Shown in pieces: positions 6,100 to 48,146 of a stretch of 64,000 bases of DNA. The translations under genes and the position numbers were made by a program. Each line of letters starts with the position of its first letter. Position 1 is the stretch's first letter. The stretch covers positions 6,392-70,391 of the forward strand of contig LCCV01000003.1 in assembly GCA_000998135.1 (NCBI GenBank), written 5' to 3'. Origin of the DNA: Parcubacteria group bacterium GW2011_GWA2_42_14. GTDB lineage: Bacteria > Patescibacteriota > Minisyncoccia > Sungbacterales > GWA2-42-14. The notes under the pieces are model-generated. The model saw only the letters and a program-made list of their open reading frames with translations. It did no database searches and was not told where the DNA came from.

Positions 6100-7200
6100 T
6101 TATTGTATCAGGAACTCTTCTATTTTTTTATTAGCCATTGTTTCTCCGTTTTGTCCTGATGCGACCCAGTAAATATCTTTATTTCTTTTAAACCACGTCA
6201 TCTGTCTTTTGGCGTACTGATGGATGGCGTTTTTTAATTTTTCCTTCATTTCGGCTCGCGCAAGTTTTTTTTGTAAAAAAAGTGAAACAAAGCGATATTC
6301 AAGCCCTAAAGATTGGAGGCGTTTATGCGAAACGCCTTTTTTTAATAAATTTTTAACCTCCTGAAACATGCCTTGTTTTAAGTGTGATTTTAGGCGTTTA
6401 TCTATTTTTTTATGGAGTTCTTTTTGGGGCAGATTTATGCCTAAAATTAGCGAATTCCAAAGATTAGCCCTGTTTTCAATGCTAATCCTTGGAATTGGGG
6501 AAATCGGTCTCGAGGTGGCTTTTACTATTTCAATTGCCCGAATCAGCCGTCTGGGATTATGATGGTCAATTGTTTTTGCGCGTTTTGGGTCGAGTTTTTT
6601 GAGTATTTGAAATAGTTCCGCTATCGATTTTTTAGAAAGTATGGCGCGCAGTTTGGTATTTGGCGGCACATTAGGAATCGGCAGGTTATACAAAACCGTA
6701 TCAACATAAAAACCTGTTCCTCCGCAAAGTATGGGAACTTTTCCGCGCTCATAATTATCTTTTATTGCCGTCTCCGCGCATTTTTTAAAATCTGCAATCG
6801 TAAAAACTTTTTTCGGCGATACGAAATCAATGCAGTGGTGAGGAACGTTTTTGTATATAAATATTTTGGAAGCCCGGTCGTCCAAAAACTGAATTTCGTC
6901 ATTGCGAGCGACCGCGGGGAGCGAAGCAATTTCTTTATTTAAGCCAATTTTAGAGATTGCTTCCTCGTTTCGCTTTCGGCGGAACTCTTCGCAATGACAT
7001 TTTTGGACAGTCGGACTTTCCGATATTGTTTTCCAGTTTCCGGGTACTTTTCCCGTTCCAATATTCAACCCCTTATAAACCTGCCTTGAATCAGCCGAAA
7101 TTATCTCGCCCTTGAATCGGCGAGCGATTTTAACAGCCAATTCCGATTTTCCGGAAGCGGTCGGCCCGACAACGGCGATAATTTTAATCTTTCTTTGCAT
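6100..7200 (-). CDS. miaA: tRNA dimethylallyltransferase MiaA
   Basis: IIAVVGPTASGKSELAVKIARRFKGEIISADSRQVYKGLNIGTGK is a P-loop N-terminus matching MiaA. Confidence 0.9.
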   Translation of the reverse strand: MQRKIKIIAVVGPTASGKSELAVKIARRFKGEIISADSRQVYKGLNIGTGKVPGNWKTISESPTVQKCHCEEFRRKRNEEAISKIGLNKEIASLPAVARNDEIQFLDDRASKIFIYKNVPHHCIDFVSPKKVFTIADFKKCAETAIKDNYERGKVPILCGGTGFYVDTVLYNLPIPNVPPNTKLRAILSKKSIAELFQILKKLDPKRAKTIDHHNPRRLIRAIEIVKATSRPISPIPRISIENRANLWNSLILGINLPQKELHKKIDKRLKSHLKQGMFQEVKNLLKKGVSHKRLQSLGLEYRFVSLFLQKKLARAEMKEKLKNAIHQYAKRQMTWFKRNKDIYWVASGQNGETMANKKIEEFLIQ

Positions 7201-41313: not shown

Positions 41314-41802
41314 ATGCATAAAAAGGAGAATAATTTCGCTTTTATAGATAATACCAATGTGCATAAGGGCATCCAGATGCTCGGGTGGAAATTAGATTTA
41401 GCGAAATTTAGGAAACTGCTTATGGAGCGATACGGTGTTACCCGTGCATATATGTTTATAGGGTATCTTGCCGGTAATCAAGACATGTATCGGGATTTTC
41501 AGAATATGGGATATACGTTGATTTTCAAACCGACGCTCCTTAACAAAAACGGTGAAGTAAAAGGCAATTGTGATGCGGAGTTAGTGTTGCAAGTCATGAT
41601 TGACCTTAGTGAATATGGGAAAGCCGTGATTGTTACGGGTGACGGCGATTTTCAATGCCTCGTGAAGCATTTGAGAAAAATCGGCAAATTGGGCTATGTC
41701 GTTAGCCCAAACATAAAATGGTGCTCAATTTTGTTAAAACGCGAGGCGAGAAGTAACCACGTATTTATTGAAGAAATGAGGTCTAGGTTGGAGTTGAAAT
41801 GA
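41314..41802 (+). CDS. NYN-domain (LabA-like) protein inserted in the ATP synthase operon
   Basis: FIDNTNV...AVIVTGDGDF is the NYN/LabA signature. Confidence 0.7.
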   Translation: MHKKENNFAFIDNTNVHKGIQMLGWKLDLAKFRKLLMERYGVTRAYMFIGYLAGNQDMYRDFQNMGYTLIFKPTLLNKNGEVKGNCDAELVLQVMIDLSEYGKAVIVTGDGDFQCLVKHLRKIGKLGYVVSPNIKWCSILLKREARSNHVFIEEMRSRLELK

Positions 41803-41936: not shown

Positions 41937-42360
41937 ATGGAAAGCAATAATGAGAAAAAAGAGAAATTCTACGCTGGCGGATTTCTGTATAACCCCCAAA
42001 TAAAATCGGTGCTTTTGCATCACCGCGATGATAAAACACCAATTCACCCGAATCAGTGGGGATTTTTTGGGGGTCAGAACGAAGGTAGCGAATCGCCAAA
42101 AGAATGTTTTATACGGGAATTGAAAGAAGAGCTCGGCGTTGAAGTGTGGGAAAGTGAAGTGAAGGTATTGTGCGATTATTTGAATAAAAATCGCGGAACT
42201 TGGCGTTCTATTCTATGTTCAAAGTAAACTAGATAAATCGCAAATGACACTTGGGGAAGGGGCGGGTTTTGACTGGATACCGCTTGCAAAAGTATTTGAG
42301 TATGATTTAACTGAGAAAACGGCCCACGATTTAAAAACATTCCTGCGGTTAAAGGAGTAA
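41937..42360 (+). pseudogene. NUDIX hydrolase, apparently frameshifted near 42215-42230
   Basis: The Nudix box GGQNEGSESPKECFIRELKEELGV lies in frame 0, which ends at 42227. The C-terminal-like remainder (LGEGAGFDWIPL...) continues in the +1 frame up to 42360. Confidence 0.45.
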
Positions 42361-42784: not shown

Positions 42785-42830
42785 AAACGGAATTACGCTG
42801 ATTGAGTACGCTGAAATACGCTGAAAAAAC

Positions 42831-43247
42831 ATGAACAAAGTTAAAGATTTTTTATATGAAAGAGAATCGTATGAAATTCGTGGCGCCATTTTTGAAGTTT
42901 GGAAAAACTTTAGGGGAGTTTTTAAGGAAAAGATAATTGAGAATGCCCTGAAGAAAGAATTGAGGTATAGAGGATTTATTGTAGAATCACAGAAGAAAAT
43001 AGACATTTACTATAAAGGCGAGAAGGTTGACAATTATACTCCAGATATTATTGTTAATAATTCCATTCTTATGGAATTAAAATCGAAGTCATTTTTAACC
43101 AAAGAAGACGAAAGGCAATTTTGGTATTATTTACGAGGAAGCCAGTACATATTAGGATTTTTAGTTAACTTCGGTTCAAAAGAAATAGAAATAAGGAGGA
43201 GAATTTATGATAAGGCCAGAGAGCAATATAAAGAAATTAGCGTTTAA
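42831..43247 (+). CDS. GxxExxY / PD-(D/E)XK (PDDEXK_3-like) family protein inserted between atpH and atpA
   Basis: ESYEIRGAIFEVWKNFRGVFKEKIIENAL...IYYKGEKVDNYTPDIIVNNSILMELKSK...LGFLVNFG matches this family as I recall it. It is flanked by tacgctga / tcagcgta repeats. Confidence 0.7.
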   Translation: MNKVKDFLYERESYEIRGAIFEVWKNFRGVFKEKIIENALKKELRYRGFIVESQKKIDIYYKGEKVDNYTPDIIVNNSILMELKSKSFLTKEDERQFWYYLRGSQYILGFLVNFGSKEIEIRRRIYDKAREQYKEISV

Positions 43248-43287
43248 TCAGCGTACTCATCCGTAATATCAGCTTCTACACACATTA

Positions 43288-44907
43288 ATGCAAGAAATAA
43301 TTAATAAGTTAAAAAAAGAAATTGAGGGTTTTAAATCCGAAATCAAGGCCGAAAAAATCGGGCGGGTTTTTGAAGTGGGCGACGGGGTATGCAGAATTTG
43401 GGGGTTATCGGATGCCATGGCGCAGGAGTTGTTGGAAATAGAAACTGATTCGGGCGCGGTAAACGCCATTGCCTTGAATTTAGAGGAAGATTCTATTGGG
43501 GCAGTAATTCTCGGCGATTTTTTGAAAGTGAAAGAAGGAAATGTGGTAAAGGGAACCGGCCGCGTTCTTTCTTTGCGCGTTGGAGATGAACTGGTTGGCA
43601 GAGTTGTAAATGCCTTGGGTGACCCAATTGACGGTAGGGGACCTGTATTTGATACCGTAGACAGTCGCGGACAGGACGCAGTCAAAGCGCGGACAAACGC
43701 AGACCATACGCAGACTGACGCAGAAAGTCCGCGACTGTCCGCGTTAAGTCCGCGTGAGTCCGCGCCTGGATATTACCCGGTAGAAAAGATAGCCCCCGGT
43801 GTAATTACCCGTGAATCCGTAAATACCCCGCTTCATACCGGAATTAAAGCGATTGATGCCATGATTCCCATTGGCAGGGGGCAACGCGAACTTATTATCG
43901 GCGACAGGCAGACCGGAAAAACAGCAATAGTTATTGATGCCATTATTAATCAACAGCAGGATACTTCGCGAAGAACGCCGATTTGCATTTATGTTGCTGT
44001 GGGCCAGAGAGAGTCAAAAGTCGCCAAAATTGTTGCTGAATTGAAAAAGAAAGGAGCGATGAAATATACGATTGTGGTTTCCGCATCCGCATCCGAGCCC
44101 GCGCCCTTGCAATATTTAGCGCCATTTGCCGGATGCGCCATAGGCGAGTACTTCATGGACAAGGGTCAGGACGCATTGGTGATTTATGATGATTTAACCA
44201 AGCATGCTTCAGCTTATCGCCAGGTTTCTCTTTTATTGCGCCGTCCTCCGGGGCGAGAAGCATTTCCCGGAGATATTTTTTATCTTCATTCGCGCTTGCT
44301 TGAAAGAGCCGCGAAACTCAATAAAGATTACGGAGGCGGTTCTTTAACTGCGTTGCCGATTATTGAAACCCAACTTGGCGATGTTTCCGCGTATATTCCA
44401 ACCAATGTCATTTCAATTACCGATGGCCAGATTTATCTTGAGCCGGATTTGTTTTATCAAGGGATAAGGCCCGCTGTAAACGTTGGGTTGTCGGTTTCGC
44501 GCGTGGGTTCGGCCGCTCAAACCAAGGCCATGAAAAAAGTCGCCGGCCGGCTTCGTTTGGATTTAGCGCAATTCCGGGAATTACAGGCATTTGTGCAGTT
44601 TGCTACTGATTTGGACGAATCAACAAAAAAGAGAATTGTCCGCGGACAGGTTTTAACCGAAATTTTAAAGCAGAATGATTTGGAGCCGATGCTGTTTGAA
44701 AAACAGGTAGCGGTTTTATACGCGGGAGTAAACGGATATTTAGATACTATTGATATTGCGGAAATTAAAAATTTTGAAAAGAAGTTTTTGGAATACATTG
44801 AAAAAATGAATGACGACATTTTAGAAAAAATAAAAACCTCCGGAGAATTATCACAGGAGATTGAAGATAGATTAAAGAAAATCATAGAAGATTTCAAAAA
44901 AATGTAG
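43288..44907 (+). CDS. atpA: F0F1 ATP synthase subunit alpha (with a ~38-aa in-frame GC-rich repeat insertion)
   Basis: [17 protein letters not shown] is the Walker A. The insertion [40 protein letters not shown] sits before the conserved PGVITRESV. Confidence 0.95.
43672..43776 (+). repeat. cgcggac / gtccgcg palindromic repeat cluster inserted in-frame in atpA
   Basis: agtcgcggaca, gcgcggaca, then agtccgcgact, gtccgcgtta, agtccgcgtga, gtccgcgcc. GC is much higher than the flanking coding sequence. Confidence 0.75.
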
Positions 44908-44918
44908 CAGGGTGTCAT

Positions 44919-45365
44919 CCTGAGGCCACAGCCGAAGGATCTTATAAGATTCTTCGCTCCGCTCGGCTCCGCTCAGAATGACGAAGGCTAAGTTTTGTTT
45001 TTCTCTTTATCCCAAGTGAAGTGATAGCTAAGCGAAGAATCTTTCTTTATGAAAAATTATTATGTATACATTGCAACAAATTGGAAAAATACCGTATTTT
45101 ACACCGGAGTAACAAACAATTTAGCGAGACGCATGCGCGAACATAAAAATAAATTATTCGAAGGATTCACCAAAAAATATAATGTAAATAAATTAGTTTT
45201 TTATGAAGTGTTTAAAAATCCCATTGAGGCAATAGGCGCTGAAAAGAAAATTAAGGGTTGGTTGCGGAGAAAAAAGATTGATTTAATAAAAAGCAAAAAT
45301 CAAGAGTTTAAAGATTTGTCTGACGAATTATTTTGAGATCCTTCGGGTGCGCCCTCAGGATGACG
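44919..45365 (+). mobile_element. GIY-YIG gene cassette bounded by ~28-bp imperfect terminal inverted repeats, inserted between atpA and atpG
   Basis: Left TIR gtcatcctgaggccacagccgaaggatc (44919-44946). The right TIR (45338-45365), reverse-complemented, reads gtcatcctgagggcgcacccgaaggatc. Confidence 0.5.
45049..45336 (+). CDS. GIY-YIG domain nuclease (small, UPF0213-like)
   Basis: YVYIATN...VFYTGVTNNLARRMREH...KLVFYEVF...AIGAEKKIKGW is the canonical GIY-YIG layout. Confidence 0.8.
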   Translation: MKNYYVYIATNWKNTVFYTGVTNNLARRMREHKNKLFEGFTKKYNVNKLVFYEVFKNPIEAIGAEKKIKGWLRRKKIDLIKSKNQEFKDLSDELF

Positions 45366-45373
45366 AAAAAAGT

Positions 45374-46381
45374 ATGCCTTCAGTAAAATCAATAAAACAG
45401 CGAATAAAATCAGTAAAAAATACCCGCCAGATTACCAAGGCGATGGAAGTTGTTTCTGCAACGAAAATGCGAAAATCGCAGCAATTTGCTATTGAAGGCA
45501 GGCCTTATGCCCTTGCCGCCATGGAGATGCTGGGAAATGTTTTGGCAAGAACAAGGTACAGACCGCCGCTTTTACGAAAACGAGAAATTAAACAGGCGGC
45601 GTTAGTTGTGGTAACTTCTGATAAGGGCCTTGCTGGCGCATTTAATTCCAATGTTTTGCGAAAAGCCGAAAAATGGATTTTAGAAAATAAACAAAATTAT
45701 CCTGTGGATTTAGTAACGGTAGGCAGGAAATCGCGTGATTATTTCCAAAACAGAAAAGAAAATGTTGTAAAGGAATTTATTGGTTTCGGCGATTTTATTG
45801 AGCCGAATCAGACAAAGCCGTTATCTGATTTTCTTACGCGCGGATTTTTAAAAAAGCAATGGGATTTAGTTGAAATAATTTATACTAATTTTCGCTCCAC
45901 TTTAAAACAAGAAGTAAAAATGGTTCAGCTTTTTCCGGTTGATTTGGAAAAAATAAAAGATACAATTGTGGGTATAACCCCAGAATATGGAAGATTTGCA
46001 GTTAATAGTGAAAATCCCAAATCCCAAAATTCGCCCCCTCGGCGAATTCCAGGGCTTCGCCCGTCGGAAGCAAATACTTTTGCTTCCGACCCAAATTCCA
46101 AACAAATTCAAAATTATCTTTATGAGTATAAGTTTGAGCCGTCGCCAAAAGCTATTCTAAATTCACTCATTCCTCATTTGCTCGAAATGCAAATTTTTCA
46201 TATGATACTTGAGTCAAATGCTTCGGAACATTCAGCTCGGATGGTGGCCATGAAAAACGCTTCGGAAAACGCAGCAGACATTATTCAGGAGTTGACTTTG
46301 CAATATAACAAGTCAAGGCAGGCGGGAATTACGCGTGAATTAACGGAAATAACTGCTGGTAAAGAGGCATTGGAGGTGTAA
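45374..46381 (+). CDS. atpG: F0F1 ATP synthase subunit gamma (with a ~35-aa in-frame repeat-element insertion). The ORF track starts at 45347, inside the right TIR
   Basis: The N-terminus MPSVKSIKQRIKSVKNTRQITKAMEVVSATKMRK and the C-terminus ...MQIFHMILESNASEHSARMVAMKNASENAADIIQELTLQYNKSRQAGITRELTEI match gamma. The insertion ENPKSQNSPPRRIPGLRPSEANTFASDPNSKQIQN is an inserted element. Confidence 0.85.
   Translation: MPSVKSIKQRIKSVKNTRQITKAMEVVSATKMRKSQQFAIEGRPYALAAMEMLGNVLARTRYRPPLLRKREIKQAALVVVTSDKGLAGAFNSNVLRKAEKWILENKQNYPVDLVTVGRKSRDYFQNRKENVVKEFIGFGDFIEPNQTKPLSDFLTRGFLKKQWDLVEIIYTNFRSTLKQEVKMVQLFPVDLEKIKDTIVGITPEYGRFAVNSENPKSQNSPPRRIPGLRPSEANTFASDPNSKQIQNYLYEYKFEPSPKAILNSLIPHLLEMQIFHMILESNASEHSARMVAMKNASENAADIIQELTLQYNKSRQAGITRELTEITAGKEALEV
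46011..46112 (+). repeat. composite hairpin repeat element (aaatccc repeats plus aattcgcc-ccctc-ggcgaatt plus ggaagc...gcttcc) inside atpG; a second copy lies at ~58540-58640
   Basis: The same element, reverse-complemented, occurs intergenically at 58540-58640. The encoded peptides are similar (RRIPGLRPSEANTFASDPN vs RQIPGLRPSEAKLFASDPN). Confidence 0.8.

Positions 46382-46438: not shown

Positions 46439-48146
<1,708 letters not shown>

What the first reader, a model, noticed from the sequence alone, without database searches (positions are those of the whole stretch)
44919..45365. GIY-YIG gene bounded by 28-bp terminal inverted repeats: a compact mobile cassette between atpA and atpG
gtcatcctgaggccacagccgaaggatc (44919-44946) and gatccttcgggtgcgccctcaggatgac (45338-45365) are reverse complements with a 6-nt mismatch in the middle. 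Between them are a GIY-YIG ORF (YVYIATN...FYTGVTNNLARRMREH) and an internal aagattcttcgc/gcgaagaatctt hairpin. The right TIR overlaps the annotated atpG start.
Basis: seen in the sequence. Interest (0 to 1): 0.6.

Follow-up and report, generated by a model that had tools for sequence, protein, structure and literature searches.

The report
Ssn nuclease gene with hairpin repeats
A 95-residue GIY-YIG nuclease gene sits between two ATP synthase genes of a candidate-phyla-radiation bacterium and is flanked by hairpin-forming repeats; it is a new example of the Ssn single-stranded-DNA nuclease and its recognition repeats (described in 2025), not a new kind of transposon.

Summary
A 28-nt inverted pair (44914-44941 and 45337-45364, 25/28 matching) flanks a 95-aa GIY-YIG ORF (45049-45336) between atpA and atpG of a Candidatus Sungbacteria genome. 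Each "TIR" is a self-contained hairpin: (C/T)GTC tag, 5-bp stem, tandem G·A, top stem and loop, 3' C. The same unit flanks homologous genes in 71 of 80 loci from many phyla, is 24-fold enriched next to the gene, and shows compensatory changes in 6 of 7 stem pairs. This matches the Ssn/SRM system (Chenal et al. 2025, PMC11893778): about 94-aa single-domain GIY-YIG enzymes that bind hairpin repeats as single-stranded DNA only and cut just upstream. The window protein is 41% identical, without gaps, to the Neisseria SsnA orthologue, and the three residues mutated in that study are conserved. The hairpins here are a G·A-bulged subclass that the published SRM search pattern misses (0 of 275 units). 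The cassette is absent from the atpA-atpG spacer of related Sungbacteria, so it was acquired. Identical proteins always occupy one genomic context, with no target-site duplication and no transposase, so active transposition is unsupported. Verdict: new member of a known kind, modest interest.

The parts
44914..44941 (+).
   Evidence: folds as (((((..(((....)))..))))) as ssDNA
44948..44982 (-). Hairpin unit U2 (T/A type, 15-nt loop region), tag CGTC. With U1 it forms a tail-to-tail doublet across a 6-nt spacer (TTATAA).
   Evidence: (I5, D5). An analogous doublet lies upstream of the homologue in L108
45016..45041 (+). Decayed unit U4. The 3' half CGAAGAATC is intact (45033-45041) and the 5' half is mutated (GTGAAGTGATAG). 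It aligns with the intact unit found directly upstream of the start codon in other lineages.
   Evidence: (I2)
45049..45336 (+). ssn-like gene: 95-aa single-domain GIY-YIG nuclease (stop codon included).
   Evidence: PF01541 E=5.9e-17. 41% identity to N. gonorrhoeae SsnA orthologue over 85 residues without gaps, E=3e-23. Y7, Y18, R28, H32, E65, N84 invariant in 25 homologues
45337..45364 (-). Hairpin unit U3 (C/G type), tag CGTC (C at 45365 on the minus strand). It starts directly after the ssn stop codon.
43288..44907 (+). atpA (F1 alpha), left neighbour. Its stop codon ends 6 nt before U1.
45374..46381 (+). atpG (F1 gamma), right neighbour. True start is ATG 45374, 9 nt after U3.
6898..6998 (-). 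Second-class hairpin doublet (GTCATTGCGA..GAAGCAAT type; units 6955-6998 on the minus strand and 6898-6930 on the plus strand, 24-nt spacer), in frame inside miaA. No cognate nuclease gene is in the window.
   Evidence: class defined

Best explanation
The locus is an Ssn-family gene (a single-domain GIY-YIG endonuclease specific for single-stranded DNA) together with its cognate Ssn-related motif (SRM) hairpin repeats. Each repeat unit folds on one DNA strand into a hairpin: an unpaired (C/T)GTC tag, a 5-bp stem beginning with AT, a tandem G·A internal loop, a short G-C top stem usually capped by a C-GNA-G loop, and an unpaired C. By analogy with Neisseria SsnA, the protein binds this hairpin only when the DNA is single-stranded (during replication, repair, or DNA uptake) and nicks a few nucleotides 5' of the tag. 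Here the tags of U1 and U3 face outward. The inferred nick sites would therefore lie just outside the cassette on opposite strands: right after the atpA stop codon and right before the atpG start. The cassette was acquired in this Sungbacteria lineage, is now single-copy and fixed, and is probably co-transcribed with the atp operon. Shown here: homology, catalytic residues, hairpin covariation, the cross-phylum gene-repeat association, and lineage-specific presence. Inferred: ssDNA binding and cleavage, the cut positions, and co-transcription. The cellular role in this organism is unknown; candidates are ssDNA restriction or modulation of recombination as in Neisseria, or selfish persistence.
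For: (1) Protein. It has PF01541. BLASTP against the N. gonorrhoeae SsnA orthologue gives 41% identity, no gaps, E=3e-23. That orthologue is 94 aa with Y6/Y17/E64 exactly as in the paper, and 16 NTS repeats lie within 3.3 kb of it. The window protein scores 72 bits against SsnA but only 29.8 bits against the UPF0213 protein 1ZG2. (2) Repeat. The features that the paper found critical for SsnA are conserved in 197 distinct units: GTC upstream of the palindrome (needed for cutting) in 182, and C after the palindrome (needed for binding) in 155 (paper read). (3) Hairpin. 93.6% of cells are paired, 6 of 7 pairs have compensatory changes, and 0 of 500 shuffles reach the observed covariation. Sliding the partner by 1-3 columns drops pairing to 20-50%. 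(4) Association. 71 of 80 homologue loci from many phyla carry units, which are 24-fold denser within 300 nt of the gene than elsewhere. The commonest geometry is forward unit upstream and reverse unit downstream. (5) Hairpin class tracks protein similarity (permutation 0/1000) and no locus mixes classes near the gene. (6) Loops are mostly C-GNA-G (CGAAG, CGCAG, CGTAG). From my own knowledge, these are very stable DNA triloop hairpins, which fits a single-stranded DNA ligand. (7) Related Sungbacteria lack the cassette between atpA and atpG.
Against: No biochemistry exists for this protein or for this hairpin subclass. The published degenerate SRM pattern matches none of the window's units and 0 of 275 units collected here, although it finds 9 in the Neisseria control. 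Identity to the characterised enzyme is only 41%. In the 64-kb window, class-1 units occur only next to the gene, so dispersed targets are not demonstrated in this genome. The tags face outward here but inward around Neisseria ssnA, so the geometry differs from the characterised case. The correlation between hairpin class and protein similarity is confounded with taxonomy.
Confidence: 0.85

Rival explanations
1. An autonomous, currently active IS-like transposon in which the GIY-YIG protein acts as the transposase on 28-bp terminal inverted repeats.
For: The repeat-gene-repeat architecture resembles an IS; Chenal et al. also note this. Cassettes in unrelated contexts share similarity only between the outer repeats. 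The closest homologues (76-80% identity) sit in unrelated neighbourhoods and phyla. The cassette is missing from relatives' atpA-atpG spacers. The outward-facing tags would place inferred nicks at both element ends.
Against: GIY-YIG enzymes hydrolyse DNA and are not known to perform strand transfer (established knowledge of the superfamily). There is no target-site duplication: the flanks are GTAGCAGGGT and GAAAAAAGTA. The window has one copy. In three of three lineages, every contig read that carries the identical protein (up to 24 per lineage) shows the same context. Every contig shown with the identical atpA carries the cassette, and all 10 loci are 100% identical. The repeats are independent hairpins that also occur singly, in doublets and in arrays. 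There are no matches in phage genomes, and plasmid matches are almost all on non-mobilizable megaplasmids or chromids.
Confidence: 0.1
2. A free-standing GIY-YIG homing endonuclease (Seg or I-TevI type) that cut the atpA-atpG junction of a naive allele and was copied in by repair. On this reading the repeats are incidental.
For: It has a GIY-YIG catalytic domain. There are weak PHROG and TIGR01453 similarities to homing or intron endonucleases over the first ~40 residues. It was inserted between conserved genes.
Against: At 95 aa it has no DNA-binding domain. The TIGR01453 score of 19.6 is far below the cut-off of 56. Homologues sit in many unrelated contexts, not at a cognate homing site. There is no phage or intron context. 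The flanking hairpins are conserved with the gene across phyla, which a site-specific homing model does not predict.
Confidence: 0.03
3. The inverted repeats are RNA-level elements of the atp operon (terminator, attenuator or mRNA stabiliser) and the nuclease gene is a bystander.
For: The hairpins lie in intercistronic spacers of a co-oriented operon. REP-type hairpins are known to stabilise mRNA in other bacteria (established knowledge). AGGA within U3 lies 13 nt upstream of the atpG ATG.
Against: No U-run follows either hairpin, and no terminator-like site overlaps them. No Rfam family matches. The left and right units are on opposite strands, so only one would carry the conserved G·A form in the mRNA. 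The units follow the nuclease gene, not atp genes, across phyla, and relatives' atp spacers lack them. SsnA does not bind RNA.
Confidence: 0.02

Closest known systems
Ssn / SRM (NTS-ssnA-NTS) system, Chenal et al., Nat Commun 2025 (PMC11893778)
   Same: Single-domain GIY-YIG protein of 94-95 aa. 41% gapless identity to the Neisseria orthologue, with the mutated catalytic residues (Y6, Y17, E64) conserved. The gene is flanked on both sides by 25-35-nt hairpin repeats in inverted orientation. Repeat architecture is the same: (C/T)GTC tag, stem beginning AT, variable loop, C directly after the palindrome. Distribution spans many phyla.
   Different: The stem carries a tandem G·A internal loop (5 bp + G·A/G·A + 2-3 bp) instead of a continuous 8-9-bp stem. 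The published degenerate SRM pattern does not match any unit (0/275). Tags face outward here but inward around Neisseria ssnA. The host is a CPR (Patescibacteria) bacterium and the site lies inside the ATP synthase operon. No dispersed class-1 copies are seen in the 64-kb window. No biochemical data exist.
CGTC-tagged REP superfamily, Di Nocera et al., BMC Genomics 2013 (PMC3733652)
   Same: An unpaired CGTC (often TGTC) tag at one end, a stem that begins with A-T and T-A pairs, a 4-5-nt loop, a short tail, frequent dimers, and occasional in-frame insertion into genes. Neisseria dRS3/NTS is CGTC-1 in that scheme. That paper found no dedicated enzyme; Ssn now fills that gap for at least part of the superfamily.
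   Different: The described families have fully complementary 8-9-bp stems and a CCA-like tail. They were catalogued mainly in Alphaproteobacteria. The G·A-bulged form and the CPR hosts are not in the text I could read (the figures are not held).
REP/REPIN-RAYT systems (REPtrons)
   Same: A single-copy nuclease gene flanked by inverted hairpin repeats that also occur as doublets elsewhere. The hairpin is recognised in single-stranded DNA with a conserved unpaired 5' tag. The arrangement is vertically stable and domesticated-looking.
   Different: RAYTs are HUH/Y1 transposases that form covalent intermediates and recognise GTAG-tagged REPs. The enzyme here is an unrelated hydrolytic GIY-YIG nuclease with a GTC tag.
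Rickettsia palindromic elements (RPE)
   Same: Short palindromic repeats that can sit in frame inside essential genes, as the class-2 doublet does in miaA here. Per Di Nocera et al., RPE-4 and RPE-6 are CGTC-type.
   Different: RPEs are longer (about 100-150 nt) and are specific to Rickettsia.

Membership tests
[quoted passage not shown] | Single-domain GIY-YIG protein of about 94 aa, homologous to N. meningitidis SsnA | tested here: met
   95 aa with PF01541 only. BLASTP to the N. gonorrhoeae orthologue: 41% identity over 85 aa, no gaps, E=3e-23. It is closer to SsnA (72 bits) than to UPF0213 protein 1ZG2 (29.8 bits).
[quoted passage not shown] | Catalytic residues shown to be needed for cutting (Y6, Y17, E64 in SsnA) | tested here: met
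   Y7, Y18 and E65 align with them and are invariant in 25 homologues, together with R28, H32 and N84.
[quoted passage not shown] | Assignment to CDD model cd10448 / placement in the Ssn clade of the GIY-YIG tree | not testable with these tools
   No CDD library is available. NCBIfam has no model that passes its cut-off.
[quoted passage not shown] | Gene flanked by hairpin repeats (SRM) on both sides | tested here: met
   U1/U2/U4 lie upstream and U3 downstream. The same holds at 71 of 80 homologue loci, with 24-fold enrichment near the gene.
[quoted passage not shown] | Repeat matches the published SRM search pattern HGTCWYN(0-2)YYVSBRHN(0-5)WNVSBRGN(0-2)RNCYNB | tested here: not met
   0 matches in the window and 0 of 275 units; 9 matches in the 3.3-kb Neisseria control. 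The tag, the AT-start stem and the 3' C are present; the tandem G·A breaks the pattern.
[quoted passage not shown] | Binds and cuts the hairpin only as single-stranded DNA, a few nt upstream; no activity on dsDNA or RNA | not testable with these tools
   This needs purified protein and oligonucleotides. Indirect support comes from stem covariation and DNA-type C-GNA-G loops.
CGTC-tagged REP superfamily | Unpaired CGTC/TGTC tag, with a stem starting with complementary A-T, T-A | tested here: met
   U2 and U3 have CGTC; U1 has TGTC; stems start with AT.
CGTC-tagged REP superfamily | Fully complementary 8-9-bp stem with a 4-5-nt loop | tested here: not met
   The stem is 5 bp + tandem G·A + 2-3 bp. 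Loop regions range from 5 to 15 nt or more.
Insertion sequence / TIR transposon | Encodes a transposase (DDE, HUH, serine or tyrosine recombinase) | tested here: not met
   The only ORF is a 95-aa GIY-YIG domain.
Insertion sequence / TIR transposon | Target-site duplication, and several identical copies in different contexts | tested here: not met
   No direct repeat at the flanks. One copy in the window. Identical proteins occur in a single context in three of three lineages.
REP-RAYT (REPtron) | HUH/Y1 tyrosine transposase flanked by GTAG-tagged REPs | tested here: not met
   The protein is GIY-YIG and the tag is GTC, not GTAG. Only the architecture is shared.
GIY-YIG homing endonucleases (I-TevI / Seg) | GIY-YIG domain joined to a DNA-binding domain; intron or phage context | tested here: not met
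   95 aa, with no second domain. TIGR01453 scores 19.6 bits against a cut-off of 56. No phage matches, and only 4 loci in 2.9 million viral contigs.

The most novel reading that the evidence does not exclude
The repeat-ssn-repeat unit may be, or may recently have been, a self-propagating element. On this reading the outward-facing hairpins let the nuclease nick both element ends in single-stranded DNA, and host repair or replication copies the unit or its hairpin doublets into new sites. This would make it a hydrolytic, GIY-YIG-based counterpart of REPIN/RAYT systems. It would explain the cassette inside an essential operon, the hairpin doublet in frame inside miaA, and the near-identical repeat architecture across phyla. 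The G·A-bulged hairpin would be a separate specificity class that current SRM searches miss.
Probability: 0.2. Interest if true: 0.6.

Novelty: new member of a known kind. Interest (0 to 1): 0.3.

Why it matters
The result extends the newly described Ssn/SRM system to a CPR (Patescibacteria) genome. It also shows that a large, cross-phylum set of ssn homologues uses a G·A-bulged hairpin that the published SRM search pattern does not detect, so the reported 71% gene-repeat association is probably an underestimate. Because Ssn enzymes are being proposed as programmable ssDNA tools, a distinct hairpin class with a clear consensus (TGTC-ATYCT-GA-G[loop]C-GA-AGRAT-C) offers concrete new enzyme/site pairs to test. 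It also shows how such cassettes and their repeats can settle inside essential operons and genes of a very small genome without disrupting them.

Tried and rejected
- **Rfam.** Gathering thresholds on the whole window and E-value mode on 44850-45420 gave nothing meaningful. There are no tRNAs in the window.
- **Literature by sequence or name.** Searches with sequence strings, COG2827, UPF0213/YhbQ and REP + GIY-YIG found nothing relevant. The key papers came from 'RAYT/REPIN' and 'CGTC' + 'GIY-YIG'.
- **Clean empty site.** The nearest relative (84% atpG identity) has a different 86-aa ORF in the spacer. Others have two ORFs, 152 nt or 320 nt. No sequences of intermediate relatedness exist in the database, and every contig shown with the identical atpA carries the cassette. 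Exact insertion boundaries therefore could not be defined from an empty allele.
- **Multiple contexts for identical proteins.** None were found.
- **Phage or defence links.** No phage hits, 4 IMG/VR loci, no PADLOC match.
- **Supplementary data.** The supplements of Chenal et al. are not held, so I could not check whether their curated SRM set already contains the G·A-bulged form.
- **Hammerhead-like core.** I considered reading CUGA...GAA as a hammerhead-like core and rejected it. The motif lacks the CUGAUGA/GAAA core and no Rfam ribozyme matched.
- **Possible target-site remnant.** The similarity between AAAAAAATGTAG (end of atpA) and GAAAAAAGTATG (before atpG) is low-complexity sequence and I do not treat it as a duplication.

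Full report
**Source and layout.** The window comes from Candidatus Sungbacteria bacterium RIFCSPLOWO2_12_FULL_41 (GCA_001820775.1, contig MHQY01000007), a candidate-phyla-radiation (CPR) bacterium. atpA ends at 44907. A 95-aa ORF spans 45049-45336. atpG follows.

**Checking the observation.**
- The inverted repeat is real, but its arms are at 44914-44941 and 45337-45364.
- The arms agree at 25 of 28 positions. With the six central positions left free, the pattern occurs exactly twice in 64 kb and never in 100 dinucleotide-preserving shuffles.
- The ORF is a GIY-YIG domain (PF01541, E=5.9e-17) and is the only such gene in the window.
- The right arm overlaps only a GTG-extended ORF call. All seven homologues aligned begin MPSVKSIKQRIK, which is encoded from ATG 45374, 9 nt after the repeat.

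**What the repeats are.** Each arm is a complete hairpin unit, not half of a long duplex.
- I scanned the flanks of 80 homologous genes (54-70% identity) fetched from species-representative genomes of many phyla: Patescibacteria, Cyanobacteria, Elusimicrobia, Ignavibacteria, Chloroflexi, Firmicutes, Gamma- and Deltaproteobacteria, Omnitrophota, Planctomycetota and Nitrospirota.
- The same unit recurs: GTCAT-N-CTGAG, a variable loop, then CGAAG-N'-ATC.
- N and N' covary (T-A 74, C-G 52, G-C 13), and so do other stem positions.
- On 51 distinct units with 5-nt loops, the structure of 5 bp + tandem G·A + 2 bp + triloop is 93.6% paired. Six of seven pairs have compensatory changes and 0 of 500 shuffles reach the observed covariation. 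Sliding the partner by 1-3 columns drops pairing to 20-50%.
- A second class, GTCATTGCGAG[loop]CGAAGCAATC, flanks the gene in cyanobacterial, Nitrospirota, Omnitrophota and other loci.
- With both classes counted, 71 of 80 loci carry units, and they are 24-fold denser within 300 nt of the gene than elsewhere. The commonest geometry is a forward unit upstream and a reverse unit downstream (24 loci).
- The window holds four units:
  - U1 (+, 44914-44941).
  - U2 (-, 44948-44982).
  - U4 (+, 45016-45041), decayed.
  - U3 (-, 45337-45364).
- Alignment with cassettes from other lineages shows that the canonical left unit is the decayed U4, directly upstream of the start codon.
- U1 and U2 form an extra tail-to-tail doublet, as also seen upstream of the homologue in L108.
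- Similarity between cassettes stops at the outer units.

**Identification.** The literature search led to two papers.
- Di Nocera et al. 2013 (PMC3733652) defined a 'CGTC-tagged' REP superfamily. Its features are an unpaired CGTC or TGTC tag, a stem beginning AT and a 4-5-nt loop. It includes Neisseria dRS3, and they found no dedicated enzyme for it.
- Chenal et al. 2025 (PMC11893778) showed that N. meningitidis SsnA, a 94-aa single-domain GIY-YIG protein (cd10448), binds the NTS repeat (CGTCATTCCCGCGMAVGCGGGAATCYRG) only as single-stranded DNA and cuts a few nucleotides upstream.
  - The three nucleotides before the palindrome matter most for cutting, and the C after it matters most for binding.
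  - Homologues in many phyla are flanked by 'Ssn-related motifs' (SRM): 71% have at least one and 42% have them on both sides.
  - SsnA lowers transformation by NTS-bearing DNA.
  - The NTS-ssnA-NTS layout resembles an IS and may be a domesticated element.

**Membership test.**
- A N. gonorrhoeae chromosome mislabelled as a plasmid in PLSDB supplied the orthologue. It is 94 aa, has Y6/Y17/E64 as in the paper, and has 16 NTS copies within 3.3 kb.
- The window protein aligns to it without gaps over 85 residues at 41% identity, E=3e-23. Y7, Y18 and E65 are in register. These residues, with R28, H32 and N84, are invariant in 25 homologues.
- The window protein scores 72 bits against SsnA but only 29.8 bits against the UPF0213 protein 1ZG2.
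- The repeat keeps the features that matter for SsnA: GTC in 182 of 197 distinct units and the 3' C in 155 of 197.
- It fails the published degenerate SRM pattern. That pattern gives 9 matches in the Neisseria control, none in the window, and none among 275 units. The tandem G·A interrupts the stem.
- The locus is therefore an Ssn/SRM member with a hairpin subclass that the published search would not count.
- The loops are mostly C-GNA-G. From my own knowledge of DNA mini-hairpins such as d(GCGAAGC), these are very stable as DNA, which fits a single-stranded DNA ligand.
- Hairpin class tracks protein similarity (permutation 0/1000) and no locus mixes classes near the gene. Taxonomy confounds this result.

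**Is it mobile?**
- For past movement:
  - Relatives with 63-84% atpG identity have other small ORFs, or only 152-320 nt, in the atpA-atpG spacer, and no units.
  - The closest ssn homologues (76-80% identity) lie in unrelated contexts: DoxX-ssn-recG in one lineage, and rubredoxin-ssn-flavodiiron in an Elusimicrobia genome.
- Against current transposition:
  - There is no transposase and no target-site duplication, and only one copy in the window.
  - Identical proteins occur in a single context in three of three lineages, with up to 24 contigs read for each.
  - The ten fetched contigs that carry this protein are 100% identical across the region, and every contig shown that carries the identical atpA also carries the cassette.
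  - There are no phage matches, only four loci in IMG/VR, and the plasmid matches are almost all on non-mobilizable megaplasmids or chromids.
- No promoter or terminator consensus stands out around the cassette. Co-transcription with the atp operon is therefore likely, but it is inferred.

**Mechanism.** By analogy, the protein recognises the hairpin extruded on one strand and nicks a few nucleotides 5' of the tag. The tags of U1 and U3 face outward here, whereas they face inward around Neisseria ssnA. The inferred nicks would therefore fall just after the atpA stop codon (top strand) and just before the atpG start (bottom strand). This is inference only.

**Verdict.** The 'mobile cassette with TIRs' reading is partly supported. 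The best explanation is an Ssn-family ssDNA nuclease gene with its cognate hairpin repeats, a system already described. This instance is a new member in a new host group, with a hairpin subclass that current searches miss.

Noticed in passing
window 6898-6998 (minus strand), inside ORF 6100-7200: A doublet of class-2 hairpin units (GTCATTGCGAAG...GAAGCAATC, a 24-nt spacer, then the inverted unit) lies in frame inside miaA (PF01715), in an inserted stretch between the N-terminal P-loop part and the rest of the domain. It encodes ...CHCEEFRRKRNEEAIS...EIASLPAVARNDE.... No class-2-type nuclease gene is in the window.
   Followed up: partly
window 43682-43770, inside atpA: An in-frame palindromic insert (43-nt arms, 72% complementary, built from GTCCGCG/ACGCAGAC-type subrepeats) encodes ~[27 protein letters not shown]. 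atpA is 539 aa here and 507-512 aa in relatives. A similar peptide (…INADTISINPRIDLRESA) sits in the atpG of relative P0122, so this is a second, different family of in-frame palindromic repeats.
   Followed up: partly
window 46063-46090, inside atpG: A perfect 12-nt palindrome (GTCGGAAGCAAA tact TTTGCTTCCGAC) lies within a lineage-specific insert of atpG. Relatives have different inserts, or none, at the same position of the alignment.
   Followed up: partly
window 41314-41802, 41937-42227, 42831-43247, 46439-46759: [quoted passage not shown] Relatives hold different small ORFs, often on the opposite strand, in the same spacers, so these spacers turn over quickly.
   Followed up: partly
window 42817-42830 and 43242-43255: A 14-nt inverted repeat (86% complementary) brackets the PDDEXK_3 gene exactly. 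It could be chance.
   Followed up: no
window 45347 vs 45374: Some public gene calls start atpG at GTG 45347 (344 aa), inside the right hairpin. Homologues show the true start is ATG 45374 (335 aa).
   Followed up: yes
L098 (NZ_CP119140.1, PLSDB): A 2.17-Mb Neisseria gonorrhoeae chromosome is filed as a plasmid in PLSDB. Its ssnA region has 16 NTS repeats in 3.3 kb, with tags facing the gene.
   Followed up: partly
L107/L108 2501-2785: One ssn homologue (P0086) lies directly downstream of VirB4/TraG-like and T4SS-pilin-like genes. This may be a conjugative element and so a possible vehicle for horizontal spread.
   Followed up: no
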